A stretch of 64,000 nucleotides of DNA from Planctomycetota bacterium (lineage in GTDB: Bacteria > Planctomycetota > Planctomycetia > Pirellulales > UBA1268). The position numbers and the translations under genes were made by a program. This document shows positions 9,004-62,530 of the stretch, piece by piece (positions within the stretch are counted from its first letter, which is position 1; each line of letters opens with the position of its first letter). The notes beneath the pieces are model-generated. The model saw nothing but the letters and a program-made list of their open reading frames with translations. It had not been told where the DNA came from and did no database searches. The stretch is taken from the NCBI GenBank assembly GCA_018970605.1, contig JAGWWA010000004.1, positions 2,289 to 66,288 of the forward strand, in the 5' to 3' direction.

Positions 9004-9055
9004 CGAAGTGTCTCCTGAAAGTTCGTGACGTGTCAAAAGCGGGGGCTGGCTCAGC

Positions 9056-9129
9056 CAGGAAGCGTAACCGCGTGAGCGGTACGGCTGCCCCTCCGCCCAG
9101 CAAGCGTAACGCCGTAAGGCGTACGGCTG
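9056..9129 (+). repeat. Two family-B repeat units (consensus CAGGAAGCGTAACGCCGTAAGGCGTACGGCTGCCC)
   Basis: Units at 9056..9090 and 9098..9129. The first carries ACCGC-GTGA-GCGGT where the consensus has ACGCC-GTAA-GGCGT: two compensatory pair swaps and a GNRA-to-GNRA loop change. Confidence 0.85.
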
Positions 9130-9152
9130 AAGCACGTCGGACGTCGCCGCTG

Positions 9153-9182
9153 CCCCCATCGCTCACGCGATTGGGCTTCCTG
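9153..9182 (+). repeat. Family-A repeat, copy 3 (one substitution: GCTCAC instead of GCTTAC)
   Basis: 29/30 identity to the 30-mer. The substitution changes the minus-strand loop from GUAA to GUGA. Confidence 0.85.
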
Positions 9183-9203
9183 ACCCGCACGTCGCAACCG
9201 CCT

Positions 9204-9238
9204 CAGGAAGCGTAACGCCGTAAGGCGTACGGCTGCCC
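9204..9238 (+). repeat. Family-B repeat unit
   Basis: CAGGAAGCGTAACGCCGTAAGGCGTACGGCTGCCC, the same unit as at 9098 and in the 62.3-kb array. Confidence 0.85.
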
Positions 9239-18829: not shown

Positions 18830-20769
18830 CCCACTCCGACCGCCGCAGGCACTGCGGCCGGCGCGGCAGGCGCGGCCGCCCGCTTTCGGATCGTGACGGT
18901 GTCGAAGAGCCGCCCGTCGAGGTCGAACGACTTCAACTCCAGCGTCCGGCCGTTGACGGCAGCGAACACAAAGTGGTGGGAGCGACGGACGTTGTTTTGA
19001 AACGGGGGCCGGATCGGCCCCGCCTGCTCGAGCCCGCCGCCACCGCCGCCGGCGATCATGTAGATCGTGCCGTCCTGCTCCACCGGGCGGCCCTCGCGGA
19101 TCGGCCAAGTCCGCTCGTAGGAGTGGATGTGGCCGTTCCAGACCACATCGACGCCGTAGCGGTCGAAGAGTTTCGTCAGCGGGCGAATCCGCATGTCGCC
19201 CCAGGTGCTCTTGCCCTTCCAGAGGTTCCCGTAGTCGTCCTCGTCGGAGGAGTACGACGGGTGGTGGTAGGAGACGAACTTCCAGACCACGTCGGACGTG
19301 CCGCTTCGCTCGGCGCTCTCCAGGGCCGCAAGTTCCCGCTCGAGCCACTGATACTGCTCGCTGTCCGGGCCGACGTTCTTGTTGGAGTCGATCGCGAAGA
19401 AGACCGCGTTGCCGTACCGGAACGAATAGTAGTATTCGGGGGCGGGCACGTTCATGTAGCGATAGTAGTGGTCAGCGTTTTGCTCGTGGTTGCCGATCAC
19501 CGGATACATGCACACGCGAGAGAAGAGCGGGCTCATGCTCGCAAAGAACTCGTCCACCCATTGCCGCTTGATCGGCCCCTGATCGACGAGATCGCCGGGA
19601 ATGAGCAGGAAGTTGGGCCGCAGCCGCCAGATCTGCTCGGCAAGGCTGCCGTTGACCGTCGGATTGCCCTGGGTGTCGCCCATCACGGCGAAGGCGAAGG
19701 GGGTCTCCGGCCGCGATGCGGTCTGAAACGAGCCAACGTCACCTTTGAGCCACGTCTCGCCACCCTCCTCCTGGACCAGCACCTGATAATAGTGCCCGGT
19801 CTCGGCGGCGAGCCCATCGAGAGTGGCGGCATGCAGGAGGCGATCGTCGCTCGTGGCGTCGACATCGCGATCGAATCGGGACGTCTCGCCGAATCGAACC
19901 CGCACCTTCGCTGGTCGGCTCACCTCGCACATCACGCGGATGCTCGTGCCGGTGGCGTACTGCAGGTAGGGCTTCACGAGAAACGAGAAATCACGGGCGG
20001 GGTCGGCCTGGGGTGGCAGTGCGACCCAGGCCGCGTGGTGGCCGTACTCGTGCTCCACCCAGGCGGGCTTCGCGGCCACGTCATAGATCACGGCCTGCCC
20101 GAGCCGGCCATGCATCGGAAACGACTCGTTGGAGTCGGCGTAGGCCCCGAGCACGAGCCGGGCGTCCTTCGGATAGAGAATCGGGCCATGCTGCTCGCCG
20201 GTCTCGGCGTCGAGTTTGCCGTTGACCCACAGCTGCATCGTCTCGCCGTCGTAGACGCCGCAGACGTGATACCAGCGGCTCGGCTCGATCGGCGTCGTGC
20301 CGGTGAGGTAGGTCATTCGACCGTTGCCATCGTCGGCCCCGGCGCTCGCGAGCCCGAAGGTCAAGCAGTGGTCGTTGTAGCCCAGCACCCATCCAGTTTC
20401 CGCGTCGCCGTTGTCCTGAAAGGCCGACACGATGCCGCCGAAGGGGAGCGTCTCGTCGAGGCTCACCAGTGCCGAGACCGTGATCGCGTCGGTCGGCAGC
20501 ACGTCCCGCACAGCCGCCCAATCGCCGTCGGCAACGAACATGTCCTGCGGGCCATCGAGGCGGAGGCACCGCAGCCGGCCGGCCGATTCGGCCGAGGCGT
20601 CGCCGTCGTGCCGCAGGTCGGGGCCGATCTGGGCGTCGAGCCGGCCGTCGCGGAGAAAGGCCCGCTCGAAGAGCCAATGGGCCCGTGGGTCCGGGCCCTC
20701 GTGCGACAGGGCGCGGCCGCCCGACATGACCACCGCCACGGCCGCTGCCAGCCAAAATCTTGCAAGCAT
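18823..20769 (-). CDS. LamG-domain / purple-acid-phosphatase-type metallophosphoesterase, secreted
   Basis: Signal peptide MLARFWLAAAVAVVMSGG. LamG-like block (WYHVCGVYDGETMQLWVNGKL...GRLGQAVIYD). PAP motifs GDTQ, GDLVDQG, GNHE, YHHP, GHIHSYER. Confidence 0.85.
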   Translation of the reverse strand: MLARFWLAAAVAVVMSGGRALSHEGPDPRAHWLFERAFLRDGRLDAQIGPDLRHDGDASAESAGRLRCLRLDGPQDMFVADGDWAAVRDVLPTDAITVSALVSLDETLPFGGIVSAFQDNGDAETGWVLGYNDHCLTFGLASAGADDGNGRMTYLTGTTPIEPSRWYHVCGVYDGETMQLWVNGKLDAETGEQHGPILYPKDARLVLGAYADSNESFPMHGRLGQAVIYDVAAKPAWVEHEYGHHAAWVALPPQADPARDFSFLVKPYLQYATGTSIRVMCEVSRPAKVRVRFGETSRFDRDVDATSDDRLLHAATLDGLAAETGHYYQVLVQEEGGETWLKGDVGSFQTASRPETPFAFAVMGDTQGNPTVNGSLAEQIWRLRPNFLLIPGDLVDQGPIKRQWVDEFFASMSPLFSRVCMYPVIGNHEQNADHYYRYMNVPAPEYYYSFRYGNAVFFAIDSNKNVGPDSEQYQWLERELAALESAERSGTSDVVWKFVSYHHPSYSSDEDDYGNLWKGKSTWGDMRIRPLTKLFDRYGVDVVWNGHIHSYERTWPIREGRPVEQDGTIYMIAGGGGGGLEQAGPIRPPFQNNVRRSHHFVFAAVNGRTLELKSFDLDGRLFDTVTIRKRAAAPAAPAAVPAAVGVGQ

Positions 20770-20822
20770 GGTCTGCCTCCTGCCGCGTCGGCCCGAGTGT
20801 TACAAAGAGCCATCTCGACGGG

Positions 20823-21926
20823 TCACTGTGCCTGGTTTTGCTCACCCAGATTCCGGGAGCCGAGTGCGCTATACGCCGCCGCATCGATCGAGTCCTGCAG
20901 GAACCGCACCGACCCGTCACCGTACGCGAACGCAGCGCCGCCGGGATGACGGCTGCCGAAGCTCAGTTCGTAGGCGGCGAAGGCAGCCGAACCCTCCGCT
21001 ACCCTCGTGGCATTCATGGGAACGCCCGTCGACCCCAGGAACTCGGACATGTCACCCTGATTGTTGGTGTCGACGTCATCGCCGCCAAACGCCCAGTGAT
21101 CCTTGCGGCCAGAGTTGGCGGCGTTGTTCTCCTTCACAATCCCCATGTCGGGCATGGTGATGAGGTCGGGCTCAGCCTCGCCGATCATGATCGTGTTCGA
21201 GGTGCCGTCCTTCACGCTCTGAATTTTTGAACCTGTGACGCCGTACGACTGACCGTTGTACTGGATGCGCTGGTGCGGAATACGGTTAACCATGATCCCA
21301 TCGAGATCCGATATCACCTCGGTCGCAGCGCCCCCCCCCCAAGGCATCGACGCCGTCTGCCGCCGCCGATCGACCGTGATCGTGCCCGAGACGCAACCAA
21401 GGTAGTTACTCGTAGCCCGCTGCTGAACCAGCCAGTTGTCGCCCGAGATGTCAGCCGCATTGGGCGGGAACTGCGACGAAGGGCAGCGGAACGTGGGAAT
21501 CGATTGCTCGCACACGTAGATGTTTCGGTAAAACTTGTTGTAGGCGCGGTTTGTAAGTGCCGCCTGACCCGTGATTCCTGGCACGCCAAAGCCCCACTGG
21601 TAGTTTCCGGTGGCGTCTTCCTGGAAGGTGAGGAGTTCGAAGAGGTTGCTCTGCTCCATGAATGGCAGGATTAACGATGACCACGCTGTGCCGACCTCAA
21701 ACTCGGCCGCCATCGGAAACCCCTTACGAGCATCGTGAAACGAGAGCGTCGCCAAGGCGACCGACTTGATGTTGTTTTGGCAACTCATGCGGCGGGCAGA
21801 CTCCCGAGCCGTCTGCACCGCCGGCAACAGCAGCCCGATAAGCGTGGCGATGATGGCGATCACCACCAAAAGTTCGACGAGCGTAAAACCGTGTAGGGGC
21901 CGGGAGCAGGACGTACCTTGCTCCAT
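20823..21926 (-). CDS. DUF1559 / H-X9-DG prepilin-like protein
   Basis: Start at ATG 21926. Prepilin cleavage/methylation motif [26 protein letters not shown], and C-terminal HPGGAAFAYGDGSVRFL (H-x9-DG). The 915-aa track ORF (to 23570) is a read-through of the antisense of the IS. Confidence 0.88.
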   Translation of the reverse strand: MEQGTSCSRPLHGFTLVELLVVIAIIATLIGLLLPAVQTARESARRMSCQNNIKSVALATLSFHDARKGFPMAAEFEVGTAWSSLILPFMEQSNLFELLTFQEDATGNYQWGFGVPGITGQAALTNRAYNKFYRNIYVCEQSIPTFRCPSSQFPPNAADISGDNWLVQQRATSNYLGCVSGTITVDRRRQTASMPWGGGAATEVISDLDGIMVNRIPHQRIQYNGQSYGVTGSKIQSVKDGTSNTIMIGEAEPDLITMPDMGIVKENNAANSGRKDHWAFGGDDVDTNNQGDMSEFLGSTGVPMNATRVAEGSAAFAAYELSFGSRHPGGAAFAYGDGSVRFLQDSIDAAAYSALGSRNLGEQNQAQ

Positions 21927-23340
21927 AGCGTGAAGTTGTGTTCGACCCCTGACACGGAGTTTACGACCATGAGAATGGATGTGATCGGCTTTGTTACTTT
22001 CATCGGCGTCGATCTGCACAAGTGCACCGTGACGCTCAGAGCGGTGCGAGCCGACGGCGAACTGCTCGGGCAGCTCAAGTGCGACACGAAGTGCATCGAA
22101 CGCATCGCGGAGTGGATCAAGAGCCTCCCGGGCCCGAAGTGGCTGGCCGTCGAGGCGTGTCCGTTCGTCGGGTGGTTCATTGACCGCTTCACTCCCTGCG
22201 TCGATCGCCTGGACATCGCCGACGCCACGGAACTTTCCATGAGAAGGGGGAAGCGGCGGAAGAACGACCCCAACGACGCCCTCGACATTGCGCTGCGGCT
22301 GGCCCGCGGCGAATGCCCGCTGGGTTACATCGCCGACCCGCAGGTCATGCAGCTGCGGAAGTTTGGCCGCCACTGGCGGCAGCTGAGCCGCTCCCTTGCC
22401 AAGGCCAAGCAGGGCATGAAGAGCATGCTCAACGCCGCCAACATCCGCGGCCCACAGTTCGACGGTCCTCGGGCCCATCGCTGGTTCCTCACGTTCGGCG
22501 GCATGCTGCAGCCCGCTCAGCGGTTGGCGTTCGGCAACTACCTCGATCAGATCCTGCTCATCGAGAGACAGCGGGAGATTCTCAGACGCGAGATGCTCAC
22601 CGCGGCCAGGTCGCCGCAGTTTGCGGCGACCGAGCAGTTGCTCAAGAGCGTCCCCGGCATCGGTCCAATCTGGGCACTGATCATCGCCTCGGAGATCGGT
22701 CCCTTCGACCGCTTCCCCAACGCCGACGCCCTCGAGTTCTGGGCCGGCATGACCGCCGACCTCAAGGAGTCGGCCGGCCGCACCCAGAGTGGCAACATCA
22801 CCAAGGCGGGCTCGGCCACCCTGCGCTGGGCCCTCTGCCAAGCTGCCGTCACGCTCTGCCAGAGCGACGCCAAGCAAGAGGCGACGAGACAACGATTCAT
22901 CGCCAGGATGCCGCGGGCCAAGGCCAACGTCGTCATGGGCCGCCGACTCCTGCGGACCCTCTACGCGATGGTGCGTGACGGCAAGGCGTACCAGTGCGGC
23001 GAGCGACGAGACCGAACCAAGGCAGCGAACAAGGCGAAGGCCAAACGGAAGGCACGCACCGTTCAACCAACCTGACAACGACATCTCAGCAGACAAGCAA
23101 GGAGACACAGACTGATCATGCGGCGGTAGCTTTTTGGTGCACCCGCACGTCGGGTGAACCACGTCGAGTCGGTGACCGCGATACGGCTTCATACGGCTCG
23201 GCTGACGATCGCCTGCGGGGCTCGCGCCCCGCAGGCTCCACGGCCATGCCGGGAATGTCAGCCGATGACTGCGACAGCGTGAATTCGGCCCGACCGATGC
23301 GGACATGGTTTTATTCGGCCCGGACTTAGCGTGGCGGCAT
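21927..23340 (+). mobile_element. IS110-family insertion sequence (ends not determinable from one copy)
   Basis: It contains a complete DEDD transposase gene with about 42 nt of 5' flank and about 490 nt of non-coding 3' flank. It is inserted on the opposite strand between two minus-strand genes. The boundaries given are approximate. Confidence 0.5.
21969..23075 (+). CDS. IS110-family DEDD transposase/recombinase
   Basis: FIGVDLHK, LAVEACPF, KNDPNDALDIA (DEDD residues) and the C-terminal VPGIGPIWA...GNITKAGSATLRWAL (Transposase_20-type domain). Start taken at ATG 21969 (MRMDVIG). Confidence 0.9.
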   Translation: MRMDVIGFVTFIGVDLHKCTVTLRAVRADGELLGQLKCDTKCIERIAEWIKSLPGPKWLAVEACPFVGWFIDRFTPCVDRLDIADATELSMRRGKRRKNDPNDALDIALRLARGECPLGYIADPQVMQLRKFGRHWRQLSRSLAKAKQGMKSMLNAANIRGPQFDGPRAHRWFLTFGGMLQPAQRLAFGNYLDQILLIERQREILRREMLTAARSPQFAATEQLLKSVPGIGPIWALIIASEIGPFDRFPNADALEFWAGMTADLKESAGRTQSGNITKAGSATLRWALCQAAVTLCQSDAKQEATRQRFIARMPRAKANVVMGRRLLRTLYAMVRDGKAYQCGERRDRTKAANKAKAKRKARTVQPT

Positions 23341-23386
23341 TGCGACCACCACGACCGGTGACCGCGAAGAGATGAATCCAACCGCC

Positions 23387-23409
23387 CCGCCGCCTCTTCG
23401 AGGCGGCGG
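23387..23409 (-). terminator. 9-bp GC stem-loop (CCGCCGCCT-CTTCG-AGGCGGCGG), possible terminator of the giant-protein/lipoprotein transcript
   Basis: A perfect inverted repeat is visible about 160 nt downstream of the lipoprotein stop. Only a weak T-rich trail follows on the minus strand. It could instead belong to the IS flank. Confidence 0.2.
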
Positions 23410-23566
23410 CGGACGGCACGAGCACACCGCACGATCAGCGACAGAAGCGACGGTTGACCGAAGGCCCCTACATAGCTAAAGCCGCGGCGATTCCTGCTGA
23501 AACCATTGGCGACTCGAAACAAAACCGCCGGGCGCGCGTTGGGCATGGCATCGCCTCGCATGTCGT

Positions 23567-24091
23567 TCACTTTCGTACCGCCGACGCCGGAACATCGAAG
23601 TCGAAGACGTTAGCCTCGCCCTTCCGCACGACGGCCCGTTCCGGCGTCGTGCTCGGCGCGTCGTAGGTATCTGGAAACAGATTCCTTACGCCTCCTTCGA
23701 CTTCGCTCGGCTTGATGTCGGGCGCCAGCGCCTCGCCGGCTTTGTTCACCCACGCAACGAGGGTCACCTTGTATTTCCCTGCCCAGATGCCCTGTTCGCC
23801 CTGTGGATGCTGCATGACGTAGTGGCCATCGAGATCGGTGATGCCGAAACCAAAGCCGTGTCGATTCGGGTCGAAGTGCGTGGCGTCGGGAAAGAAGCCC
23901 ACCTTGCACCCGTTGACCGGCTTCCCGCCGAGTCGGACGGTGCCCTGCACCTGATGCATCGGGGGCTTCCCGCAACCGACGATCGCCGCGACGACGACAA
24001 CCAGCAGGCACACGGCACCGATCCGGCGCCGCAGGGCGTCGCCGAACCGGGCCGATGTATCTCGTTGGAGCATGTCCATGGAGGGCGTCAC
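23567..24091 (-). CDS. small lipoprotein with carboxypeptidase-regulatory-like (transthyretin-like) domain
   Basis: Lipobox AAIVGC, then VQGTVRLGGKPVNGCKVGFFP...ITDLDGHYVM...GKYKVTL, typical of the small partner genes of DUF1559 loci. It lies 12 nt downstream of the giant gene. Confidence 0.7.
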   Translation of the reverse strand: MTPSMDMLQRDTSARFGDALRRRIGAVCLLVVVVAAIVGCGKPPMHQVQGTVRLGGKPVNGCKVGFFPDATHFDPNRHGFGFGITDLDGHYVMQHPQGEQGIWAGKYKVTLVAWVNKAGEALAPDIKPSEVEGGVRNLFPDTYDAPSTTPERAVVRKGEANVFDFDVPASAVRK

Positions 24092-24103
24092 GTGTCCTCC
24101 GTG

Positions 24104-27100
24104 TCAGACCAACGAGAAGGCGGACTTCTTGCGTCCCGTACCGACCTGCGACTCCGCCGCAAACGCGGCAAAGGCGGCTTCGACCGGTGTCACCGACGAA
24201 CCAGACGCAGATGCCGGGGCCTCGGTCGCGGGCAGGTAGTTTCCGACGTCATAGAGGCTGGCACCGAGGAGGTCCGCCAAGTCAAGTTGATCGACGACTC
24301 CATCGTGGTTGAAATCACCGCTGATCCAGTCGGCCGGCGTGCCGGCGTCGAGTTGGCCACTGCCCAGGAAGTTGGCGAGATCGCCAATGTCCACGCTGCC
24401 GTCGAGGTTTGAGTCGCCAGGTGCCGCGTAGCCGACGGTGAATGACCCGCCGTTATCCATCCACCCGAGCGTCCGAGCAGGGGTCGACGCCACGACCGTC
24501 GATGTGAAGCCCGCGATGCCATTCCACGAGCCATCGCCCTTGCCGGCGTTGATCGCGGCCAGGATCGACGTCCGATTCAGGCCCGACTGGGCCGTCAGCT
24601 TGCCTGCCCCGAAGTCGAGGAGGCCACCGGTGGCCAGAACGAGCGAGGTGATGTCAACGGTGCCAGTGCCGACGTCGAGCACCACCTTCGCCCCAGCCTG
24701 GACTTCCAGCGCACCGCTGCCAAGGGCCGCCAGGTTCTTCACGACCAGCGTGCCGGCCGTCACGACCGTGCCACCCGAGTGGGTGTTGGAGCCCGTGAGG
24801 ACGAGCATGCCCGTACCCTGCTTCACGATCCGCTCGGCACCCGAGTGGACGGTCGAGTCCGTCTGGGTCTGGCCAGACGGGACATCGACGATCGTGCCGT
24901 CAGCTCCGACGCGGCCCGGCGAGCCGGTGTCGGCGGCATTGTAGACCGCCGACGTCGGGTGGAGAGCCCCGTCGGTGCCCGCCACCGAGGCACGCCAGTT
25001 CGTGCCCACGTCGGTGTCGCCAGTCAGATTCTTGAGGTAATGGCTCGAGCCGGCCACGTACGCCGGCCACACCGTGCCGTCTTCGGCAAAGTTCGCCGTG
25101 TTGCGGGTCGTGCCCGAAGCATCCTTCAGAACGAACATCTCGTTGACCCGGGTGGGCGAGTTGTCGAGATCACCCCACACCAACCCAACGACTCCCGCCG
25201 TCGCTGGCACGTTCCAGGCCGCGCGGAACTCACTCGCTGTGCCAACCCAGTTGTTGTACAGCACGAGCACACCCCCGGCCGGGATCGTGGTTCCTGCAGG
25301 AATCGCGCCCCACTTGATGGTGTCTTCGTCGTCGAAGTACCAGTTGCCGACATCGGCCGTGCTCGACCCGCGGTTGTAGAGTTCGACCCATTCCGTGGCC
25401 GTGTCTCGGCTGCCGGACTGCGACGAGTCGTACATGATCTCCGAGATCACCACCTCGCCCACGTCGTTGTCGGCGATCGACACGCTCGTGGTCCCGGCGA
25501 CGAAGCTTGCCGCCGTGGCCGTGAACGTCACCGGTCGCGTGCCCCGGTAGCGGGCATCGTTCACGATCGTGATCGGGAACGTCACCGACTCCTGGCCGTT
25601 CGGAATCGTCACCGTGGCGGGCACCGTAGCGGCACCCGTGTCGCTGCTGGCAAGCGTCACGACCAGGTCGCCGACCGTGCCGAGGTTCCTCGTGACCGTG
25701 CCCGTCAGCGGGGCATCACCTTCGGTCGCTGCCGCCGCGGCAGTGACCGTCAGCGTCGCGGCGTCGGCCGTGGTGAAGTTCCACGTCGTCGGCGAGCTGA
25801 TGCCGGGGCTCGGCAGGCCGTCCACGGTGCCCTTCACGATGATATTGTCGATCGCCCACCACCAGTCGTTCGTCCCAGTGTTCGTCCAGCGGAAGACCAT
25901 CGTGCCATCGTCGGGGTTCTGCACCGACACCGTGCGGTGCTCGTTGACGTTGGCAGCCGTTGAGCTGCCGAGCGTGTTGCTCGAGTCGAGCGTCAGCAGA
26001 TTGGTCCAGGTCGCCCCGGCGTCGTAGCTCACGTCGAGGAAGCCCTGCATGTTGTCGGGCGTGTAGGGCGTGAACGAACCGCCACTTTCCGGCCGGAAGC
26101 TCGAGTCAAACTCGAGCGTCACCGAACTGGCGGCCACGGTGGCGAGATTGATCGGCGTGGACAGCAGCTTCGCGTTGAAGCTGTTCTTGGGATAGTAGCC
26201 GTAGTCATCCCACTCGTCGGTGTCGGCCACGGCGACCGTGCCCGAACCGAGCGTGAAGTTCGCCCGGCTCTGGCCACCCTCGGTGGTCCAGAAGTTCTTG
26301 TTGGCGAACGTCCATCCCCGCCACTCCGGCGCCCCGCCGAATGGCATGGCCGAGTTGTCGGTGGTCCAGCCGCCCGGCGGCGTGGCGGTGAACTCCTTGC
26401 CGCCCTGCAAGCCCACCGTCTCGTAGACGGCCGGTCCCAGCGGGAGCAGTTCGAAGTCTTGCTTGAGGAGTTGCACGCCGCTGGTGACAAAGGACGACGC
26501 GCTGAGGACGGCGCCGTTGTCGATCAGGATGTAGTAGTCGGTCAGCTTGACCAAATCGCGGACCGGATTGATCGTCAGCGTGGAGCCGCTGATCGACACC
26601 TCCGCGGAGTTGATGTCGATCATCTTCTCCGCCTTGTTGTCGGAGGACCGGACGATGTAGATGAACCCGTTGCCCTTCTTGATGGCCTGGTCGTAGGTGA
26701 CCACGCCGTTGGCCGAGACGGCCACGGCGGTCGCGTTATCGGCTGGCGAGAAGTTCGTCGGCTTGGGGAAGTCGTCGTCGAGCACCGTCACGGTGGCCGA
26801 GACCGAGAAGAAGTCGGTCGCGGTCGCGGTGATCACCGAGGTCTGAGAACCGTCGGAGAGAAGATCATCGACACCCGAAATCGAGAACGTCACCGACGAC
26901 TGGCCGTCGGGGATCGTCACGGTGGCGGGCACCGTGGCTGCCGTGGTATCGCTGCTGGCGAGCGCCACGACGAGCGCGCCCGACGTGCCGGCGGCGACAT
27001 TGCGGGTGACAGTGCCCGTGGCAACGCCGCCGTTCTCGCTGATCGACGCCGGAGTCAACGTGACCGTGAGGGTCGGGGCTTCGGCCGTGGTCACGCTCCA

Positions 27101-29584
27101 CGTTGCGGTGTCGTCGATGCCCGCGTAGGGCACGCCCTCCTTCTCACCACGAACGACGATGTTGTCGATGGCCCACCACCAGTTGTTGTCGCCTTCGAAA
27201 TAGCCGAACTTGAACTTCATCTGGCCCGATGAAGGACTGTTGAGCGGGGCATCGACCGTAGCGCCCTGCACGTACTGACCCGCGGTGTTCGAAGCCGACA
27301 CCGTGATGTGGTTGTTGAGGGCACTGTTGGTGTTAGCGGCGTCGCCGAAGAAGAGCAGCGGCGACCAGGTCGCCCCATCGTCGTACGAGACCTCGACGGT
27401 GCCGTACTGCGGGAGTTCCTTGTTGTAGCTGGAGTCAAACTCGAGGGTCACAGTGCCGGGCGTGATGCCGGAGAGATCGATGGACTTCGTGATGAGGAGA
27501 CTGTTGAACCGACCCGCGGCGTGCGAGACGTCATCCCACTCGTCGGAGTCGGCCACGGCCACGGTGCCGGTGCCGAAGCTGAACCGACTGCGATCCTGAT
27601 CGCCGGCGGTCGTGATCCAAGAGTTCTTGTCGACGAACGTCCAGCCCTGGAAGTCGGACTGGCTGGCCGGCATCTGCGAGTTGTCCACCGTGAAGCCCGC
27701 CGGGAGCTCACGGGTAAAGTCGGTGCCGTCACCGCGCGGCTCGGTGACAAACGGGCCGAGGGGGAGACGATCGAACGTCTCGGTGAGCAGAACCGCGTTG
27801 CTGGTGAGCGTGCTGCTCGTGTCGAGGAAGGCACCGTCGTCGATCAGCAACGAGTAGCCGGTGAGGCCCTTGAGGTTGATCGGCGGGTCGATCGTGACGG
27901 TCGAGCCCGAGACGACGACGGCCGACGACTTGACATCGAGCGTGGCGCCGATCCAACCGGTGGCCGTCTCGACGATGTGGATGTTGCCGCTGCCCTTCTT
28001 CACCGTCGTGCCGAAGGTGAGGCTGAAGTTCGCCTTGTAGCCGACGCCGGTGGCGTTATCGGCCGGAGTGAGCGTGAGGACCTTCGGGCCCTCATCGTCG
28101 ACCACGTTGATCGAGGCCGTGCTCTGGGCGTAGACCACCGACGTGGCAGTGATCGTCACCTTTTGCGTCCGGTCGCTGAGGTTGTCGTCGACGGCCGTGA
28201 TGGGAAAGGTGACCGACGACTGGCCGTTCGGAATCAGCACCGTGGCCGGGACCGTAGCCTCGGTGGTGTCGCTGCTCGAGAGCGTGACCAGCACGTCGCC
28301 GACCGGCAGGTTGTTGCGAGAGACGGTCGCCGTGGCGGTGCCGCCGTTCTCGCTCATTGAACCGGGGTTGATTGCGAGGGTCAGCTTGGGCGACTCGGGC
28401 GTGGTGAAGTTCCAGAACGTGGCGTCGGAGAGGCCTGCATATTCGCCACCGACGATGTTCCCGGTGATCTTCATGTTGTCGACGCCCCACCACCAGTCGT
28501 TCGTGCCTTCCGTGTAGAAGCGGAACACGAGCGAGCCGCTGTTGGGGTTGACCACGGCACCGAAGGTGGCGCCGCCCTTGCCGTCGCCGCTCACGCCGGT
28601 CGAGGTGCCCGAGACGAGCCGCTCATTGATGCTCTTGTTGACGAAACTCGCGCTGCCGGCGGTGTTCGTGGTGTTGAACTCGTTGAGGGTCAAGAGAGTG
28701 GACCACGTGGTCCCGCCGTCGTAGCTCACATCGAGTTTGCCGGTCTGGGCCTCACCGGGGCCTTCAGGGCGGAAGCTCGAATCGAACTCGAGCTTCACCG
28801 AACCAGCCGCCACGCCCGTCAGATCAACGGGCTTGGTGGTGACATAGCTCTTGAACGCCCCGCCGTTGGGGGCGTCGTCGAACTCGTCGGTGTCGGCAAC
28901 CATGATGCCGCCCGAGGCAAGCGTGAACTGATCGCGGTTCTGGCCTTCGGGTGCACCGGCCTGTTTGATCCAGGAGTTCTTGTCGGCGGCCACCCAGCCC
29001 TTCCACTCCTCCTTGCCGCCGGTCGGCATCTCGCTGTTGTCAACGGTGAAACCGAGCGCTATGTTCGGGCTCCAGTCGGTGCCGTCGCCGCCTCCGTCGG
29101 TCACGAACGGCTGCAGGGGCGTGAAGTCGAAGTTCTGCTGGAGGAGCGTGGCACCGGTGGTTGGGGTCGACGAGGTGTCAATGAACGCGCCCTTGTCGAT
29201 GTACACCGAGTAGGTGTTGTCGAGTTCGAGGTCGGTCGGGAGGTCGACCGTCACCTGATTGCCGCTGACCGACACGTTCGCCGACCGCACATCCACTGCC
29301 ACGCCCGTCGTGCCCGTGCCCTGCCGGACGACGTAGATGTTGCCCTGGCCCTTGATCACGTTCTCGTTGAACGTGAACACCAGATCGCTGTTGAGCGGGA
29401 CGTTCGTCGAGCCGTCGAGCGGGGCAATGCCCGTCACCGAGAGCGCGAGCATGTTGCGGTTCTCAAACCGCTCCAGGCTGGAAAGCCCACCGAGCCGCCG
29501 GGGATGGCGGGCCTGGCGTGACTGAAACAGGCTCTTGAGGGCGGTCGCGAACGAGGCAGCGGTCGGGCGGCGGCGTAACGACAT
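24104..29584 (-). CDS. giant multi-domain surface protein (1826 aa): 3x [Ig-like + WWW-motif beta-sandwich + Calx-beta-like], lamin-tail domain, PATR beta-strand repeats, dockerin-like repeats
   Basis: Start at ATG 29584 (MSLRRRP...RRLGGLSSLERFENRNMLA). Three supermodules of about 437 aa ending NDWWWGVDNM / NNWWWAIDNI / NDWWWAIDNI. LTD motif VVISEIMYD...EWVELYN. PATR repeat GTGMLVLTGSNTHSGGTVVTAGTLVV. GDSNLDGSVDIGDL / GDFNHDGVVDQLDL. Confidence 0.85.
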   Translation of the reverse strand: MSLRRRPTAASFATALKSLFQSRQARHPRRLGGLSSLERFENRNMLALSVTGIAPLDGSTNVPLNSDLVFTFNENVIKGQGNIYVVRQGTGTTGVAVDVRSANVSVSGNQVTVDLPTDLELDNTYSVYIDKGAFIDTSSTPTTGATLLQQNFDFTPLQPFVTDGGGDGTDWSPNIALGFTVDNSEMPTGGKEEWKGWVAADKNSWIKQAGAPEGQNRDQFTLASGGIMVADTDEFDDAPNGGAFKSYVTTKPVDLTGVAAGSVKLEFDSSFRPEGPGEAQTGKLDVSYDGGTTWSTLLTLNEFNTTNTAGSASFVNKSINERLVSGTSTGVSGDGKGGATFGAVVNPNSGSLVFRFYTEGTNDWWWGVDNMKITGNIVGGEYAGLSDATFWNFTTPESPKLTLAINPGSMSENGGTATATVSRNNLPVGDVLVTLSSSDTTEATVPATVLIPNGQSSVTFPITAVDDNLSDRTQKVTITATSVVYAQSTASINVVDDEGPKVLTLTPADNATGVGYKANFSLTFGTTVKKGSGNIHIVETATGWIGATLDVKSSAVVVSGSTVTIDPPINLKGLTGYSLLIDDGAFLDTSSTLTSNAVLLTETFDRLPLGPFVTEPRGDGTDFTRELPAGFTVDNSQMPASQSDFQGWTFVDKNSWITTAGDQDRSRFSFGTGTVAVADSDEWDDVSHAAGRFNSLLITKSIDLSGITPGTVTLEFDSSYNKELPQYGTVEVSYDDGATWSPLLFFGDAANTNSALNNHITVSASNTAGQYVQGATVDAPLNSPSSGQMKFKFGYFEGDNNWWWAIDNIVVRGEKEGVPYAGIDDTATWSVTTAEAPTLTVTLTPASISENGGVATGTVTRNVAAGTSGALVVALASSDTTAATVPATVTIPDGQSSVTFSISGVDDLLSDGSQTSVITATATDFFSVSATVTVLDDDFPKPTNFSPADNATAVAVSANGVVTYDQAIKKGNGFIYIVRSSDNKAEKMIDINSAEVSISGSTLTINPVRDLVKLTDYYILIDNGAVLSASSFVTSGVQLLKQDFELLPLGPAVYETVGLQGGKEFTATPPGGWTTDNSAMPFGGAPEWRGWTFANKNFWTTEGGQSRANFTLGSGTVAVADTDEWDDYGYYPKNSFNAKLLSTPINLATVAASSVTLEFDSSFRPESGGSFTPYTPDNMQGFLDVSYDAGATWTNLLTLDSSNTLGSSTAANVNEHRTVSVQNPDDGTMVFRWTNTGTNDWWWAIDNIIVKGTVDGLPSPGISSPTTWNFTTADAATLTVTAAAAATEGDAPLTGTVTRNLGTVGDLVVTLASSDTGAATVPATVTIPNGQESVTFPITIVNDARYRGTRPVTFTATAASFVAGTTSVSIADNDVGEVVISEIMYDSSQSGSRDTATEWVELYNRGSSTADVGNWYFDDEDTIKWGAIPAGTTIPAGGVLVLYNNWVGTASEFRAAWNVPATAGVVGLVWGDLDNSPTRVNEMFVLKDASGTTRNTANFAEDGTVWPAYVAGSSHYLKNLTGDTDVGTNWRASVAGTDGALHPTSAVYNAADTGSPGRVGADGTIVDVPSGQTQTDSTVHSGAERIVKQGTGMLVLTGSNTHSGGTVVTAGTLVVKNLAALGSGALEVQAGAKVVLDVGTGTVDITSLVLATGGLLDFGAGKLTAQSGLNRTSILAAINAGKGDGSWNGIAGFTSTVVASTPARTLGWMDNGGSFTVGYAAPGDSNLDGSVDIGDLANFLGSGQLDAGTPADWISGDFNHDGVVDQLDLADLLGASLYDVGNYLPATEAPASASGSSVTPVEAAFAAFAAESQVGTGRKKSAFSLV
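25465..29443 (-). repeat. Three tandem coding repeats of about 1.31-1.36 kb inside the giant gene
   Basis: Module starts are near 29443, 28083 and 26765. The WWW landmarks near 28485, 27175 and 25860 give a period of about 1310 nt. Confidence 0.75.
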
Positions 29585-29761
29585 GAGAGACTCCCGGTTT
29601 CGCGTAGGGCGTTGGGTGAACGAAGACGAACAGGCGACGTTATGAACTTCTTCGATGAGGACATCACCAGAGTTCCGTGAGTTTTCGATGAAAATCTCGT
29701 AGCGGTCTGACAAGGGACATCGCCCGTTCGAGCTACCGAAGGGCTTTTTCGAGGGATCTGT

Positions 29762-43676: not shown

Positions 43677-44531
43677 TCACTGCCCGACATCGCCGGCCGA
43701 TGCCGTCACCAGCGACACGAACACCTCCGGATCGACACTCTCCTCGATCGACCGCACGGAAGCGTCGCCAATGACGAACATGCACATCCCGGGATGGAAC
43801 GAGTAGATCTCGTTGTTGTTGTGCAGGTTCATCATCTGGCCGCCACGCTGCTCGTGGATGGCAAAGTAACTGTCTTTATCGGCCCACCGAGCGCCGCTCA
43901 CGGCGGTGCTGCCATCCGGCTTGCTACCCACATACCCCAGCGGCCGCCCCGCATCCTCGTAGAGAAGAATCGTCTTGGAGAGTCCGTCACTGACCGCCGA
44001 ACGCTTCCGGGCCTGCGGCCAGAGCATGCCCGTCCAGTTGGCGCGGGTCGTGAGTTGCTTGGCCGAAACCAGCGCGGAGTAGGCGGACGCATTGACCTGA
44101 TGACATGCGGCGTAGTCCGAGACCGGGTCAGTCCGTGCGGGCGCCGATGGGCAGACCGTGGTCGTGAGCGGCGAGGCCAGCAGCGCCTTGTTCTTGCCGA
44201 CATTCCAATCCTTGGTCCAGTCGACCTGATCGCCGATCTGCCCCTGCTCCATGTAGGAGAGGATGAAGGTGTAGAAACTGTGCCGAGCCGGAAGGGTGGC
44301 CGATCCGGCAGGCTCGGTCCATCCGGGCGGGATCTTCCGCTGGCCCGACTCATAGGCGTGCACCGCGAGGCCCGTCTGCTTGAGATTGTTGGAGCACGAC
44401 GTCCTCCGGGCCGACTCGCGTGCCGACTGCACCGCCGGCAGCAGCAGGCCGATGAGCGTGGCGATGATCGCGATCACCACCAAGAGTTCTACAAGCGTGA
44501 ACCCGCCGCATGGCCGATCGTGCCGCTTCAT
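43677..44531 (-). CDS. DUF1559 prepilin-like protein (H-x9-DA variant)
   Basis: Start at ATG 44531 ([43 protein letters not shown]). C-terminal [17 protein letters not shown]. Confidence 0.85.
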
Positions 44532-55297: not shown

Positions 55298-55376
55298 GGT
55301 GACACCTGGGGGGGAACGTGTGCGATGCGAAACGAGGCGGGCGGACAGCAGGATCGACGGGCAGCCACGGGGCTCG

Positions 55377-55895
55377 TCACCCAGGCGGCTTGGCGGCACG
55401 CGTGGTGAGATCGAACGGGGCAATGCTGGACGACATCCGGCCGACGGAGGCCTTGAGCGGCGACGTCTCCGGGTTCGCGAACCGGCCACCGAGGCGGTCC
55501 ACCTCGGTCGCGTTGGCCGCGGCGGCAGCCTCGGGATCGTCCGACGTGCTCGTCGCCTTCTCGGGGCCTCCGGCGAACCACTCCGCCGTGACGACGTACT
55601 CACCCACCGGCGCGCCGTCGGCCATCTCGTAGGTGCCGATCACGAACGAACCGTCGGATCCGGTGCGGGCCGTTGGACGAAGTTTCTCGAGCCTCGTGTC
55701 ACCGGCGTTGATCGGATGAAGCACCACCTGCACGCCCGCCACCGGCTTCCCGTCGACCCGGACGGTTCCCTGGGCCGGCACCGTGGCGAGCCGATCCGAG
55801 CCGCAGCCGACGACGGCAACCACGGCGACGCATGCCACCACCGCGACGACGAACGAGGCAGCACCTGGCGGAACGTGCAGGACTGGGCTGGACAC
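55377..55895 (-). CDS. small lipoprotein with carboxypeptidase-regulatory-like domain (paralog of 23567..24091)
   Basis: Lipobox VAVVGC, then AQGTVRVDGKPVAGVQVVLHP...TGSDGSFVIGT...GEYVVTA. Confidence 0.7.
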   Translation of the reverse strand: MSSPVLHVPPGAASFVVAVVACVAVVAVVGCGSDRLATVPAQGTVRVDGKPVAGVQVVLHPINAGDTRLEKLRPTARTGSDGSFVIGTYEMADGAPVGEYVVTAEWFAGGPEKATSTSDDPEAAAAANATEVDRLGGRFANPETSPLKASVGRMSSSIAPFDLTTRAAKPPG

Positions 55896-55976
55896 GGGTA
55901 ACCTTCCGAGGCGAGCGTCGCGGCCTACCGGGGCGGCGACGTACCGAGGTTGTCACCGACGACGGTGAGCGGCGTG

Positions 55977-62270: not shown

Positions 62271-62300
62271 CCCCCATCGCTTACGCGATTGGGCTTCCTG
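62271..62300 (+). repeat. Family-A 30-nt repeat, copy 4
   Basis: Exact 30-mer. It abuts the family-B array head-to-head through the palindrome TTCCTG-AC-CAGGAA (62295..62308). Confidence 0.9.
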
Positions 62301-62302
62301 AC

Positions 62303-62530
62303 CAGGAAACCTCACGCCGTAAGCCGTACGGCCACCCCTCCCAGCAAGCGTAACGCCGTAAGGCGTACGGCCACCCCTCCCAGAAAGCGTAACGCCGTAA
62401 GGCGTATGGCCACTCGCCCAGGACACCTCACGCCGTAAGGCGTACGGCCACCCGCCCAGGACACCTCACGCCGGGACGCGTACGGCCACCCGCCCAGGAC
62501 ACCTCACGCCGTAAGGCGTACGGCTGCCCC
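62303..62530 (+). repeat. Tandem array of six 38-39-nt family-B units (no unique spacers)
   Basis: Units start at 62303, 62342, 62381, 62419, 62457 and 62495. Each unit is CAG(G/C/A)A..-ACGCC-GNRA-GGCGT-ACGGCC(A/T)CCC.... Unit 5 has a GGGA loop in place of GTAA. Confidence 0.9.

What the first reader, a model, noticed from the sequence alone, without database searches (positions are those of the whole stretch)
21927..23566. IS110-family element with a long 3' non-coding flank: candidate bridge/seek RNA
The DEDD transposase gene (21969..23075, + strand) starts only 42 nt from the divergent DUF1559 ATG. About 490 nt of non-coding DNA follows its stop. In IS110/IS1111 elements a structured ncRNA encoded in the non-coding end specifies target and donor recognition, and in the IS1111 subgroup it lies downstream of the recombinase, which would fit this layout. 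The flank contains a perfect 10-bp stem (GCCTGCGGGG-CTCGCG-CCCCGCAGGC, 23211..23236) and a tandem ATACGGCT ATACGGCT with 10-nt spacing (23181..23198). TACGGCT is also the conserved 3' arm of the family-B repeats in this window. Some IS110-family members are known to target REP-like repeats.
Basis: partly seen in the sequence, partly recalled or inferred. Interest (0 to 1): 0.6.

Follow-up and report, generated by a model that had tools for sequence, protein, structure and literature searches.

The report
RNA-guided IS read through by host
This is an RNA-guided insertion sequence that has landed exactly at the leader-peptide cleavage site of a planctomycete pilin-like (DUF1559) gene, and its whole family is kept in frame and free of stop codons on the host gene's strand, which suggests the host protein is still made and the element's translation is trimmed off with the leader.

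Summary
The transposase at 21969-23075 is IS110-family, and the about 405 nt after its stop belong to the element and encode a conserved, covarying RNA with four guide-like segments.

The details need correcting:
- The inserted DNA is 21888-23480 (1593 bp), not 21927-23566.
- The "DUF1559 ATG" at 21926 lies inside the element's left end.
- The real 5' end of that gene (start codon and leader) is displaced to 23481-23561.
- The target is not the family-B repeat. It is the DNA encoding Gly|Phe-Thr-Leu of the prepilin cleavage motif, seen in 64 of 68 distinct left junctions.

The larger finding is new. 54 of 59 distinct complete copies have a length divisible by 3. 52 have no stop codon anywhere in the antisense frame that continues the interrupted host gene. 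Their "non-coding" regions have 25 different lengths, all multiples of 3. About 102 stop-creating substitutions are expected there and none is observed.

I infer that the host gene is translated through the element and that prepilin peptidase cuts at the regenerated Gly|Phe. This is not shown. This particular copy has a mutated right terminus and may be immobile.

The parts
21888..23480 (+). Inserted DNA of the element: 1593 bp = 531 codons. The AA core is present at both junctions (21886-21887 and 23479-23480), so the crossover point within it is undetermined.
   Evidence: Flanks differ between copies beyond these points. Removing 21888-23480 restores the host ORF. An empty syntenic site exists in L142.
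21879..21887 (.). Left target half plus core, GAGCGTA-AA. On the minus strand this reads TTT ACG CTC = Phe-Thr-Leu of the prepilin motif.
   Evidence: 64 of 68 distinct left junctions carry NGTRAA (= Phe-Thr codons on the other strand) followed by DNA encoding L(V/I)ELLVV. The exceptions are L016, L062 and two tandem junctions.
23481..23483 (.). Right target half, GCC = the Gly(-1) codon on the minus strand. Beyond it the flanks are variable leader codons.
   Evidence: Right flanks begin N-(C/G)-C and then diverge.
21892..21901 (.). Left subterminal inverted repeat, TGTAGGGGCC.
   Evidence: Complementary to 23463-23472. It covaries with its partner in relatives: TGTATGGGTT/AACCCATACA and TGCAGGGG/CCCCTGCA.
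23463..23472 (.). Right subterminal inverted repeat, GGCCCCTACA.
21903..21924 (+). Left-end hairpin, GGAGCAGG-ACGTA-CCTTGCTCC. The sequence varies between copies but the pairing is kept.
   Evidence: Compensatory changes across copies.
21943..21959 (+). Internal inverted copy of the left terminus (CGACCCCTGACACGG), overlapping the GGAG ribosome-binding site 9 nt before the transposase ATG.
   Evidence: Conserved, and predicted by alifold to pair with CCGTGTAGGGG at the left end. A role in translational control is inferred.
21969..23075 (+). Transposase, 368 aa. [quoted passage not shown]
   Evidence: (IS621 8WT6, E = 9.7e-10, with E-S aligned). It contains no TTA/CTA/TCA codons.
23159..23302 (+). 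Target-binding domain of the ncRNA. Outer stem: 23159-23178 with 23286-23302. An internal loop carries two guides. Inner stem: 23195-23206 with 23259-23272. Distal hairpins follow.
   Evidence: alifold on 16 and on 80 sequences, plus pair counts.
23182..23190 (+). Guide U1 (right-target-guide-like), TACGGCTTC. Its 3' part GGCTTC is complementary to the top strand G-AA-GCC (core plus Gly codon).
   Evidence: It is the most variable segment of the RNA. Its reverse complement matches R-AA-N-S-C of the junctions. Its last base covaries with position -3 of the right end in 56 of 67 copies.
23211..23236 (+). It is the distal hairpin of the target-binding domain.
   Evidence: Kept as a hairpin but with unrelated sequence and length in distant relatives.
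23275..23283 (+). Guide U2 (left-target-guide-like), CAGCGTGAA. It has the same sense as left target plus core, so it would pair with the bottom strand. Its reverse complement reads TTC ACG CTG = Phe-Thr-Leu.
   Evidence: The guide matches its own left flank better than permuted flanks: 6.71 against 6.45 of 10, with 3 of 10,000 permutations as high. L007, L005, L006 and L016 show matched changes.
23303..23312 (+). Guide U3 (right-donor-guide-like), ACATGGTTTT. It is complementary to the left junction AAAACCGTGT with one G-U pair.
23368..23376 (+). Guide U4 (left-donor-guide-like), AGAGATGAA. It is identical to the family's right terminus plus core.
23382..23416 (+). Third conserved GC-rich hairpin, with no U tract.
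   Evidence: Six of 7 pairs in its main helix show compensatory changes. No terminator-like site was found.
23454..23459 (+). TTGACC. The preceding G plus TTGAC (GTTGAC) is invariant, ending 22 nt from the right end. It is a candidate -35 box of a promoter formed when the ends are joined.
   Evidence: Invariant in alignment A1. The function is inferred from the junction promoters described in PMC11187229.
23471..23480 (+). Right terminus CATAGCTAAA. It differs at 3 of the last 8 nt from the family consensus CAGAGATGAA and from this copy's own guide U4.
   Evidence: The nearest relatives are about 95% identical overall.
23481..23561 (-). Displaced 5' end of the DUF1559 gene: start codon and leader, MRGDAMPNARPAVLFRVANGFSRNRRG.
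   Evidence: the ortholog P0005 starts MRGNAM...; DNA alignment with the empty site.
20823..21887 (-). Mature part of the DUF1559 gene, [13 protein letters not shown]... to its stop codon.
   Evidence: Pfam N_methyl plus PF07596. Orthologs are 85-88% identical.
20823..23570 (-). Continuous ORF with no stop codon: leader, then 531 element-encoded codons, then the mature DUF1559 protein. 915 aa from GTG 23570, or 912 aa from ATG 23561.

Best explanation
**What it is.** A 1593-bp IS110-family insertion sequence with IS1111-type architecture. It has an 81-nt left end, 10-11-bp subterminal inverted repeats, a DEDD transposase and a 405-nt right end.

**The RNA.** The right end encodes a bridge/seek RNA on the transposase strand. 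One internal loop carries two guides for the target, U1 and U2. A second domain carries two guides for the element's joined ends, U3 and U4. By homology with IS621 and ISEc11, the transposase-RNA complex would recombine the circularised element (...GAGATG-AA-ACCGTG...) with the target.

**The target.** It is 5'-(C)AG(C)GT(R)-AA-N(C/G)C-3'. Its other strand reads GGN TTY ACN CTN, that is Gly|Phe-Thr-Leu, the prepilin-peptidase cleavage and methylation motif of DUF1559 and other pilin-like genes. Insertion makes no duplication. Orientation is fixed, with the transposase antisense to the host gene.

**Shown from sequence**
- The element's ends.
- The empty site.
- The RNA structure with covariation.
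- The guide matches.
- In the main clade, the element is always a multiple of 3 long and free of stop codons in the antisense frame that continues the host gene.
- The left end supplies ...RPLHG, so Gly(-1)|Phe(+1)-Thr-Leu is rebuilt.

**Inferred**
- The host gene is still translated from its own start, through the element, into the mature part.
- The element-encoded 531 residues behave as an extended cytoplasmic leader that prepilin peptidase removes at the rebuilt Gly|Phe.
- The insertion therefore costs the host little.

**This copy.** Its right terminus no longer matches its donor guide, so it is probably poorly mobile or immobile.
For: **Family**
- NF033542 scores 173.7 bits and PF02371 scores 73.3 bits.
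- IS621 and ISCro4 transposases are the only PDB matches.

**Ends and target**
- 18 genome loci and about 99 metagenome copies share ...GTAA|AACCGTGTAGGGGCC...CCCCTACAGAGATGAA| with unrelated flanks.
- Deleting 21888-23480 restores MRGDAMPNARP...NRRG|FTLVELL.
- Orthologs have intact leaders.
- The empty syntenic site L142 reads CGT CAT GGT TTC ACG CTC.

**RNA**
- Large parts of the right end are near-identical across elements that are 82-94% identical overall at the DNA level.
- 96.1% of cells are paired against 28-45% in slid controls.
- The covariation score is 0.278 against 0.03-0.065.
- G-U outnumbers A-C by 224 to 56, which favours the + strand.
- The window sequence folds with a z-score of -4.95.

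**Guides**
- Four units share the pattern GACCGCGA-guide-ATTCGGCC.
- U2 covaries with its own left flank: 3 of 10,000 permutations reach the observed match.
- U4 equals the right terminus. U3 is complementary to the left terminus.
- The order and strandedness fit IS621's left and right guides in the reversed order reported for IS1111.

**Open frame**
- 54 of 59 copies have a length that is 0 mod 3. 52 of 59 have 0 stops in the host-phase frame, against 6-19 and 15-33 in the other two antisense frames.
- 25 distinct right-end lengths (372-717 nt) and 3 left-end lengths are all multiples of 3.
- About 102 stop-creating substitutions are expected in the right end and 0 stops are observed. The other two frames carry 258 and 203 stops.
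- The transposase genes have 0 TTA/CTA/TCA in 16,559 codons, against 98 expected.
- ATG-started ORFs spanning whole elements are confirmed independently by the ORF listing.
- Transposase-less derivatives of 663 and 390 nt keep the property.
- Host mature parts are mostly full length.
- Public gene calls of 920 and 927 aa with N_methyl plus DUF1559 domains contain the antisense peptide.
Against: - There are no expression data of any kind. Neither the RNA nor read-through translation nor cleavage is shown.
- In a single sequence the guide matches are not significant once wobble pairs are allowed: 10-16% of shuffles do as well. The case rests on register, conservation and family-level covariation.
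- U1 matches only about 6 nt of the junction. A subgroup with U2 = CCGTGTGAA pairs with the target over only 7 nt, two of them wobbles.
- Subgroup membership by transposase phylogeny was not tested. The nearest plasmid-borne relatives are below 30% identical, and the protein (368 aa) is longer than typical IS1111 transposases (330-350 aa).
- Whether a prepilin peptidase can process a leader of about 550 residues is unknown.
- Avoidance of transcriptional polarity would explain the open frame equally well.
- Occupied sites shared between samples are at least 99% identical, so long-term retention of occupied, intact host genes could not be tested.
- A sister clade (L069, L101, L111, L132) targets the same motif without the open frame.
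Confidence: 0.85

Rival explanations
1. The open antisense frame exists only to avoid polarity. Ribosomes that keep translating through the element protect the host transcript from Rho-dependent termination, so downstream genes stay expressed. The fusion protein itself is not processed into a working DUF1559 protein.
For: This also explains stop avoidance and the length rule. DUF1559 genes sit in tight same-strand arrays: in L142 the 174-aa gene, the DUF1559 gene and the next gene are 5-50 nt apart.
Against: It does not explain why the element sits exactly at the Gly|Phe bond. It does not explain why its left end always supplies a Gly codon and a basic ...RRPLHG tail resembling natural leaders. 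It does not explain why host mature parts stay intact.
Confidence: 0.2
2. The stop-free antisense frame is a by-product of high G+C content and shared ancestry (a 'shadow ORF'), not of selection.
For: For one copy, the transposase part alone would be stop-free with probability of about 0.23 at host codon usage. Copies are related by descent.
Against: 25 distinct right-end lengths are all multiples of 3. 0 stops are observed against about 102 expected from 3224 substitutions, while the two other frames of the same DNA carry 258 and 203 stops. 0 of 16,559 transposase codons are TTA/CTA/TCA against 98 expected. Internally deleted derivatives remain in frame.
Confidence: 0.02
3. The conserved right end acts as DNA (repeated transposase-binding sites) or as an mRNA 3' stability or termination element, not as a guide RNA.
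For: It contains repeated motifs: GGTGACCGCGA three times and ATTCGGCCCG two to three times. Rfam has no matching family. No transcript is known.
Against: Helices are kept by compensatory changes with a G-U over A-C bias of 224 to 56, which is typical of RNA on the + strand. The segments between the motifs match target and donor half-sites with the strandedness of IS621 guides and covary with the flanks. There is no terminator-like U tract.
Confidence: 0.07
4. The element targets the family-B REP-like repeats of this genome, and the DUF1559 location is incidental.
For: Family-B units read AAGCGTAACGCCGTA. This is 2 mismatches from the composite ideal target CAGCGTRAAGCCGTA of this copy's guides. 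Four units are among the best 5 matches in the window.
Against: One mismatch falls in the AA core shared by donor and target. None of about 99 copies is in such a repeat, whereas 64 of 68 distinct left junctions encode Phe-Thr-Leu. The distal TAC of guide U1 shows no match to real right flanks.
Confidence: 0.03

Closest known systems
IS1111-group elements with seekRNA / bridge RNA (ISEc11, ISPa11, ISKpn4; PMC11187229, PMC11208160)
   Same: DEDD transposase. Short left end and long right end that encodes the guide RNA downstream of the transposase. Subterminal inverted repeats within the 7-17 bp range. The segment pairing the top strand lies 5' of the one pairing the bottom strand. Site- and orientation-specific insertion without duplication. 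Donor-binding nucleotides are not in a simple internal loop.
   Different: The transposase is below 30% identical to plasmid-borne family members, is 368 aa long, and has S-A-G instead of S-G after the catalytic serine. The target is a protein-coding motif rather than REP, attC or transposon ends. The whole element is an in-frame, stop-free insert in the host ORF.
IS621 bridge RNA (IS110 group; PMC11208160, PMC11208158)
   Same: Four guides: left and right target guides, left and right donor guides. The left guides pair the bottom strand and the right guides pair the top strand, and all include the core. There is a long left-target guide (about 9 nt) and a short right-target guide (4-6 nt). 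A 2-nt core is shared by donor and target.
   Different: The RNA lies 3' of the gene. The order of guides within each domain is reversed. The core is AA rather than CT. The inverted repeats are long.
Piv invertase of Moraxella (a relative of IS110/IS1111 transposases; mentioned in PMC11187229; target details from my own knowledge)
   Same: A DEDD recombinase of the same superfamily acting inside type IV pilin genes, near the conserved N-terminal coding region.
   Different: Piv inverts a resident segment to switch pilin variants. It is not a mobile element, and no guide RNA is described for it.
Rickettsia palindromic elements (own knowledge: Ogata et al. 2000, Science)
   Same: Mobile DNA found inserted in frame in protein-coding genes and translated with the host protein.
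   Different: These are about 100-150-bp non-autonomous repeats that stay in the mature protein. Here a full 1.6-1.9-kb transposase-bearing element is open on its antisense strand and sits where a host protease can remove its product.
Inteins, group I/II introns and IStrons (own knowledge)
   Same: Selfish elements that limit harm to the host by being removed after transcription or translation.
   Different: They splice themselves out. Here removal would rely on a host signal-type peptidase, and this is inferred, not shown.

Membership tests
IS110 family (DEDD transposases) | Transposase with an N-terminal DEDD/RuvC-like domain and the C-terminal PF02371 domain | tested here: met
   NF033542 scores 173.7 bits (cut-off 140) over residues 11-339. 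PF02371 scores 73.3 bits. PF01548 scores 27.9 bits, just below its cut-off of 29. FIGVDLHK is conserved.
IS110 family (DEDD transposases) | Conserved G--P----SG motif containing the catalytic serine | tested here: inconclusive
   The family motif is G(L/M)T(A/P/S)D..(K/E)SAG. The serine is present and aligns with IS621 E-S, but it is followed by Ala-Gly, and Pro is often Ala.
IS110 family (DEDD transposases) | Sequence-specific, orientation-specific insertion without target duplication | tested here: met
   The same junctions occur in 64 of 68 distinct left flanks. Comparison with the empty site shows only the shared AA core.
IS110 family (DEDD transposases) | Non-coding-end RNA with loops complementary to the target and to the joined ends | tested here: met
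   Covariation-supported structure. Four guide segments in one register. Guide-flank covariation. Transcription was not testable.
IS1111 subgroup | Subterminal inverted repeats of 7-17 bp | tested here: met
   TGTAGGGGCC at 21892-21901 pairs with GGCCCCTACA at 23463-23472. This is 11 bp in most relatives, with compensatory variants.
IS1111 subgroup | Long non-coding region downstream of the transposase, holding the guide RNA | tested here: met
   The left end is 81 nt and the right end is 405 nt (372-717 nt in relatives).
IS1111 subgroup | The top-strand-pairing segment lies 5' of the bottom-strand-pairing segment in the RNA | tested here: met
   U1 (pairs the top strand) at 23182-23190 precedes U2 (pairs the bottom strand) at 23275-23283. 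The criterion is taken from PMC11187229.
IS1111 subgroup | Transposase clusters phylogenetically with IS1111 relatives (330-350 aa) | not tested
   No ISfinder reference set was available. The plasmid tblastn hits are all below 30% identical. The protein is 368 aa (361-375 aa in the clade).
IS1111 subgroup | Circular intermediate with a promoter formed by the joined ends | not testable with these tools
   GTTGAC is invariant, ending 22 nt from the right end. RE|LE junctions are seen in contigs L065, L103, L052 and L030. These may be tandem copies or circles.
Rfam RNA families | Match to a curated covariance model | tested here: not met
   No match at E <= 10 in 20000-25500.

The most novel reading that the evidence does not exclude
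A clade of RNA-guided insertion sequences has evolved to be harmless at the protein level. It programs its guide to the DNA encoding the prepilin cleavage site. It inserts antisense. It keeps its whole length, including its transposase gene and its guide-RNA gene, in frame and stop-free on the host strand. It rebuilds Gly(-1)|Phe(+1). The host protein would then be synthesised with a 130-635-residue extra leader that the host's own prepilin peptidase removes. This would be a third way, beside introns and inteins, for selfish DNA to sit inside a gene without destroying it. It would also place three overlapping constraints on one stretch of DNA: transposase codons, RNA structure and an open antisense frame.
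Probability: 0.55. Interest if true: 0.9.

Novelty: new variant of a known kind. Interest (0 to 1): 0.8.

Why it matters
**Bridge and seek RNAs.**
- This adds a deep-branching, environmentally widespread planctomycete clade with a clearly readable four-guide RNA.
- It shows a natural target that is a coding motif of a multi-copy gene family.
- Guide variation falls at synonymous codon positions.
- A G in the guide tolerates both Phe codons (TTT and TTC).

**Mobile elements.**
- The in-frame, stop-free rule is kept through dozens of length changes, even in transposase-less derivatives.
- It is direct sequence evidence that selection acts on what the host ribosome reads across an insertion sequence.
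- If leader-peptide removal is confirmed, it is a new strategy for a low-cost insertion.
- It would also give a natural design for placing large cargo in a gene without losing the gene product.

**Annotation.**
- Thousands of planctomycete DUF1559 genes may be mis-started inside such elements. The NCBI protein for this locus starts at an ATG in the element's left end.

Tried and rejected
- **Rfam scan of 20000-25500 at E <= 10:** nothing found.
- **Exact-protein look-up:** it returned only three short contigs identical to the window, so it gave no second copy.
- **Repeat search in the window:** no second copy.
- **Single-sequence test of guide matches with wobble allowed:** runs of 8-9 nt are reached by 10-16% of shuffles, and the right-target match by 97%. 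It is not significant on its own.
- **Family-B repeats as target:** 2 mismatches including one in the core, and no insertion seen there. Rejected.
- **The in-frame ATG at 21926 as a designed start codon:** only 25 of 65 copies have an in-frame ATG in the left end. Rejected as a general feature.
  - An earlier version of that script was off by one base and is superseded.
- **Hydropathy of the element-encoded peptide:** maxima of 1.3-2.4, the same as a control frame. Uninformative.
- **Occupied orthologous sites as a test of long-term retention:** the pairs are at least 99% identical or share only one flank, so there is no power.
- **Subgroup assignment through named relatives on plasmids:** all hits are below 30% identical.
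- **Other AGSGTRAANCC sites in the window (47112, 48258, 53136):** these are internal GFTL strings in large repeat proteins, not pilin-like N-termini. Only 44494-44504 is a true empty target.
- **Literature searches** for IS110 with DUF1559, Planctomycetes, prepilin, or in-frame read-through: nothing relevant in the held library.
Full report
**1. What is at the coordinates**

The ORF at 21969-23075 (+) encodes a 368-aa IS110-family transposase.
- NCBIfam NF033542 scores 173.7 bits against a cut-off of 140.
- Pfam PF02371 scores 73.3 bits. PF01548 scores 27.9 bits, just under its cut-off.
- The only solved relatives are the IS621 and ISCro4 transposases. The E-S of the catalytic motif aligns.
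- Rfam has no family for this region.
- The window holds no second copy.

**2. Ends of the element**

Sources of related copies:
- A scan of species-representative genomes gave 18 loci from Pirellulales and Planctomycetia MAGs, with transposases 64-96% identical.
- A metagenome scan with a conserved 18-mer of the 3' flank gave 120 loci, about 99 of them true copies.

What the copies share:
- All share ...GTAA|AACCGTGTAGGGGCC on the left and ...GGCCCCTACAGAGATGAA| on the right.
- Beyond these points the flanks are unrelated.
- In the window the inserted DNA is 21888-23480 (1593 bp). An AA dinucleotide is present at both junctions, like the core of bridge recombination.
- The 405 nt after the stop codon therefore belong to the element.
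- The subterminal inverted repeats are TGTAGGGGCC and GGCCCCTACA. They covary in relatives, for example TGTATGGGTT with AACCCATACA.

**3. What it is inserted into**

- To the left of every copy, the diverged DNA encodes (G)FTL(V/I)ELLVVIAII on the opposite strand.
- Removing 21888-23480 restores MRGDAMPNARPAVLFRVANGFSRNRRG|FTLVELLVV....
- Orthologs 85-88% identical have uninterrupted leaders. One of them begins MRGNAM.
- A syntenic empty site, L142 (174-aa gene followed by the DUF1559 gene), reads CGT CAT GGT TTC ACG CTC across the junction.

Consequences:
- The real start and leader lie at 23481-23561.
- The target is 5'-(C)AG(C)GT(R)-AA-N(C/G)C-3'. This is the Gly|Phe-Thr-Leu coding sequence of the prepilin cleavage and methylation motif.
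- The only other such N-terminus in the window (44494-44504, AGCGTGAACCC) is unoccupied.

**4. The 3' flank is an RNA gene with four guides**

Conservation and structure:
- Large parts of the flank are near-identical across elements that are 82-94% identical overall at the DNA level.
- RNAalifold on 16 and then on 80 sequences gives three parts:
  - an outer stem, an internal loop, an inner stem and distal hairpins;
  - a second domain;
  - a third hairpin.
- On the 80-sequence alignment:

| Measure | Structure | Slid controls |
|---|---|---|
| Cells paired | 96.1% | 28-45% |
| Compensatory cells | 363 | 34-62 |
| Covariation score | 0.278 | 0.03-0.065 |

- None of 500 shuffles reaches any of these values.
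- G-U pairs outnumber A-C by 224 to 56. This places the RNA on the transposase strand.
- The window sequence folds at -134.9 kcal/mol, z = -4.95.

The guides:
- The flank contains four units of the form GA(C/T)CGCG(A) - 9-10 nt - ATTCGGCC.
- The variable segments are:

| Unit | Window position | Sequence | What it matches |
|---|---|---|---|
| U1 | 23182-23190 | TACGGCTTC | Reverse complement matches R-AA-N-S-C, the core plus the Gly codon |
| U2 | 23275-23283 | CAGCGTGAA | Same sense as left target plus core; reverse complement is TTC ACG CTG = Phe-Thr-Leu |
| U3 | 23303-23312 | ACATGGTTTT | Complementary to the left junction AAAACCGTGT |
| U4 | 23368-23376 | AGAGATGAA | Identical to the family's right terminus plus core |

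- This is the IS621 scheme. The left guides pair the bottom strand, the right guides pair the top strand, and all include the core. There is a 9-nt left-target guide and a short right-target guide (PMC11208160).
- The order is reversed relative to IS621, as reported for IS1111-type seekRNAs (PMC11187229).
- U1 and U2 lie on the two sides of the first internal loop.

Covariation with the flanks:
- U2 matches its own left flank better than permuted flanks: 6.71 against 6.45 of 10, with 3 of 10,000 permutations as high.
- Matched changes are seen in L007 (CAACGT), L005 (CCAGGGT) and the retargeted L016 (CGGTAT).
- Guide variation falls at third codon positions of Thr and Leu.
- The guide's G opposite the Phe third position can pair with either TTT or TTC.
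- U1's last base covaries with position -3 of the right end in 56 of 67 copies.

Caveats:
- In one sequence alone, with wobble allowed, these matches are not significant.
- U1 matches little beyond N(C/G)C.

- The 10-bp hairpin is the variable distal hairpin of the target-binding domain.
- The tandem ATACGGCT is U1 plus a diverged copy of ATTCGGCC.

**5. The family-B idea**

- Family-B units (AAGCGTAACGCCGTA) lie 2 mismatches from the composite ideal target. One mismatch is in the core.
- No copy is inserted in such a repeat.
- I treat the resemblance as unsupported.

**6. The unexpected property**

In the window:
- The minus-strand ORF 20823-23570 (915 aa) runs from the displaced leader through the entire element into the mature DUF1559 part.

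Across 59 distinct complete copies:
- 54 have a length divisible by 3.
- 52 have no stop codon over the whole element (663-1905 nt) in the antisense frame in phase with the host gene.
- The other two antisense frames carry 6-19 and 15-33 stops.

Main clade, 45 parsed copies:
- Left ends are 75, 78 or 81 nt long.
- The "non-coding" right ends have 25 different lengths from 372 to 717 nt. Every one is a multiple of 3.
- Along a minimum spanning tree the right ends differ by 3224 substitutions. About 102 of them would create a host-phase stop if placed at random. None exists in any copy, against 258 and 203 stops in the other two frames.
- The host-phase frame is codon-aligned with the transposase, so antisense stops correspond to TTA, CTA and TCA codons.
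- The 45 transposase genes have 0 of these in 16,559 codons. 98 are expected at the frequency seen in the adjacent host genes.

Independent confirmation and other support:
- ATG-started ORFs span whole elements in L017 (806 aa), L005 (858 aa) and the 663-nt transposase-less derivative in L097 (502 aa).
- A 390-nt derivative (L135) behaves the same way.
- The left end read outward always ends ...(R)RPLHG, then the host Phe-Thr-Leu. This rebuilds Gly(-1)|Phe(+1) behind a basic tail like natural leaders.
- Host mature parts next to copies are mostly full length, at 257-376 codons. A native ATG lies 4-30 codons upstream of the junction.
- Public gene calls of 920 and 927 aa carry the antisense peptide plus N_methyl and DUF1559 domains.

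Informative exceptions:
- A sister clade with TGTATGGG repeats and the retargeted L016 and L062 lack the property.
- L019 has stops and sits in a truncated host gene.

**7. Mechanism**

Shown:
- The element, its ends and its target.
- The structured RNA with its guides.
- Purifying selection that keeps the element in frame and open on the host strand.

Inferred from homology with IS621 and ISEc11:
- RNA-guided recombination occurs between the joined ends and the target.
- Transcription may start from a junction promoter. GTTGAC is invariant, ending 22 nt from the right end.

Inferred from the position, and from established knowledge that prepilin peptidase needs Gly(-1) and cuts at the cytoplasmic face while the leader stays in the cytoplasm:
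- The host gene is translated through the element.
- The element-encoded peptide is removed with the leader.

A weaker alternative is that the open frame only prevents polarity.

Tandem copies:
- Because the left junction regenerates GTA-AA-ACC, it remains a target. This explains contigs in which a right end abuts another left end (L065, L103, L052, L030).
- Such arrays stay in frame.

**8. This copy**

- Its right terminus reads CATAGCTAAA. That is 3 changes in the last 8 nt relative to CAGAGATGAA, which the other copies keep almost unchanged, and relative to its own U4.
- Its nearest relatives differ by about 5% overall.
- It is probably poorly mobile or immobile.
- The transposase ORF and the open antisense frame are intact.

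**9. Comparison and novelty**

- By architecture this is an IS1111-type member of the IS110 family: inverted repeats, a downstream RNA and the reversed guide order.
- Phylogenetic placement was not tested. Relatives on plasmids are below 30% identical.
- Targeting a coding motif of a large paralogous family is, within the library searched, undescribed. So is the in-frame, stop-free design.
- From my own knowledge, the closest analogies are Rickettsia palindromic elements (translated in-frame repeats) and inteins, introns and IStrons (removal after expression).
- Piv, a relative of these transposases, also acts inside type IV pilin genes.

Noticed in passing
L081 6694-7358 (minus orientation), L097 7802-8466, L135, L039: Internally deleted, transposase-less derivatives of 663 nt and 390 nt keep both ends and part or all of the guide RNA. 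The 663-nt form is found at two different sites in two metagenomes at 99.6% identity. These derivatives are still in frame and stop-free. L039 is a partial deletion that lacks U1 and U2.
   Followed up: partly
L065 (two copies), L103, L052, L030, L037, L038, L130, L111: A right end is directly followed by another left end, either ACCGTGTAGGGG or the variant ACCATGTAGGGG. These are tandem insertions or assembled circle junctions. This fits the left junction regenerating a target.
   Followed up: partly
window 21889-21959 and alignment of 70 left ends: CCGTGTAGGGG at the left end can pair with CCCCT(N)ACACGG, which overlaps the GGAG ribosome-binding site of the transposase. The two arms covary in the low-GC clade. 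This may be fold-back control of translation on read-in transcripts.
   Followed up: partly
L016, L062, L069, L101, L111, L132: L069, L101, L111 and L132 form a sister clade with TGTATGGG inverted repeats. L016 shares that repeat variant but, like L062, sits in a non-pilin site. None of the six keeps the open-frame property: all carry host-phase stops, and only L132 has a length divisible by 3. They serve as a natural control. L016's guide CGGTATGAA matches its own flank CGGTATAAA.
   Followed up: partly
window 21926 / protein P0001: The public annotation of this DUF1559 gene (367 aa, MEQGTSCSRPLHGFTL...) starts at an ATG inside the element's left end. The same mis-start is likely for many occupied genes.
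   Followed up: yes
window 44494-44504 (gene N-terminus at 44504, minus strand): A paralogous DUF1559 gene, [10 protein letters not shown]|[13 protein letters not shown], carries an unoccupied site AGCGTGAACCC. This matches guide U2 in 8 of 9 positions.
   Followed up: partly
window 9046-9238 and 62293-62529; also 927, 1130, 9152, 62270: The family-B units are 38-39-nt tandem repeats with a 5-bp stem and a GTAA loop (ACGCC-GTAA-GGCGT). They are flanked by a second repeat, GCCCCCATCGCTTACGCGATTGGGCTTCCTG. Their nature was not examined.
   Followed up: no
window 46500-57200 and 24104-29713: A large internally repetitive region has 4.3-kb duplicated blocks at 69-76% identity. A 1869-aa protein has three 1.3-kb repeats.
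   Followed up: no
transposases of the clade (window residues about 253-263): The catalytic-serine motif reads G(L/M)T(A/P/S)D..(K/E)SAG. This is Ser-Ala-Gly instead of the Ser-Gly described for IS110 and IS1111.
   Followed up: partly
L031 vs L070: Two copies 95.8% identical share about 300 nt of left flank but have unrelated right flanks. This suggests recombination between copies or paralogous genes.
   Followed up: no
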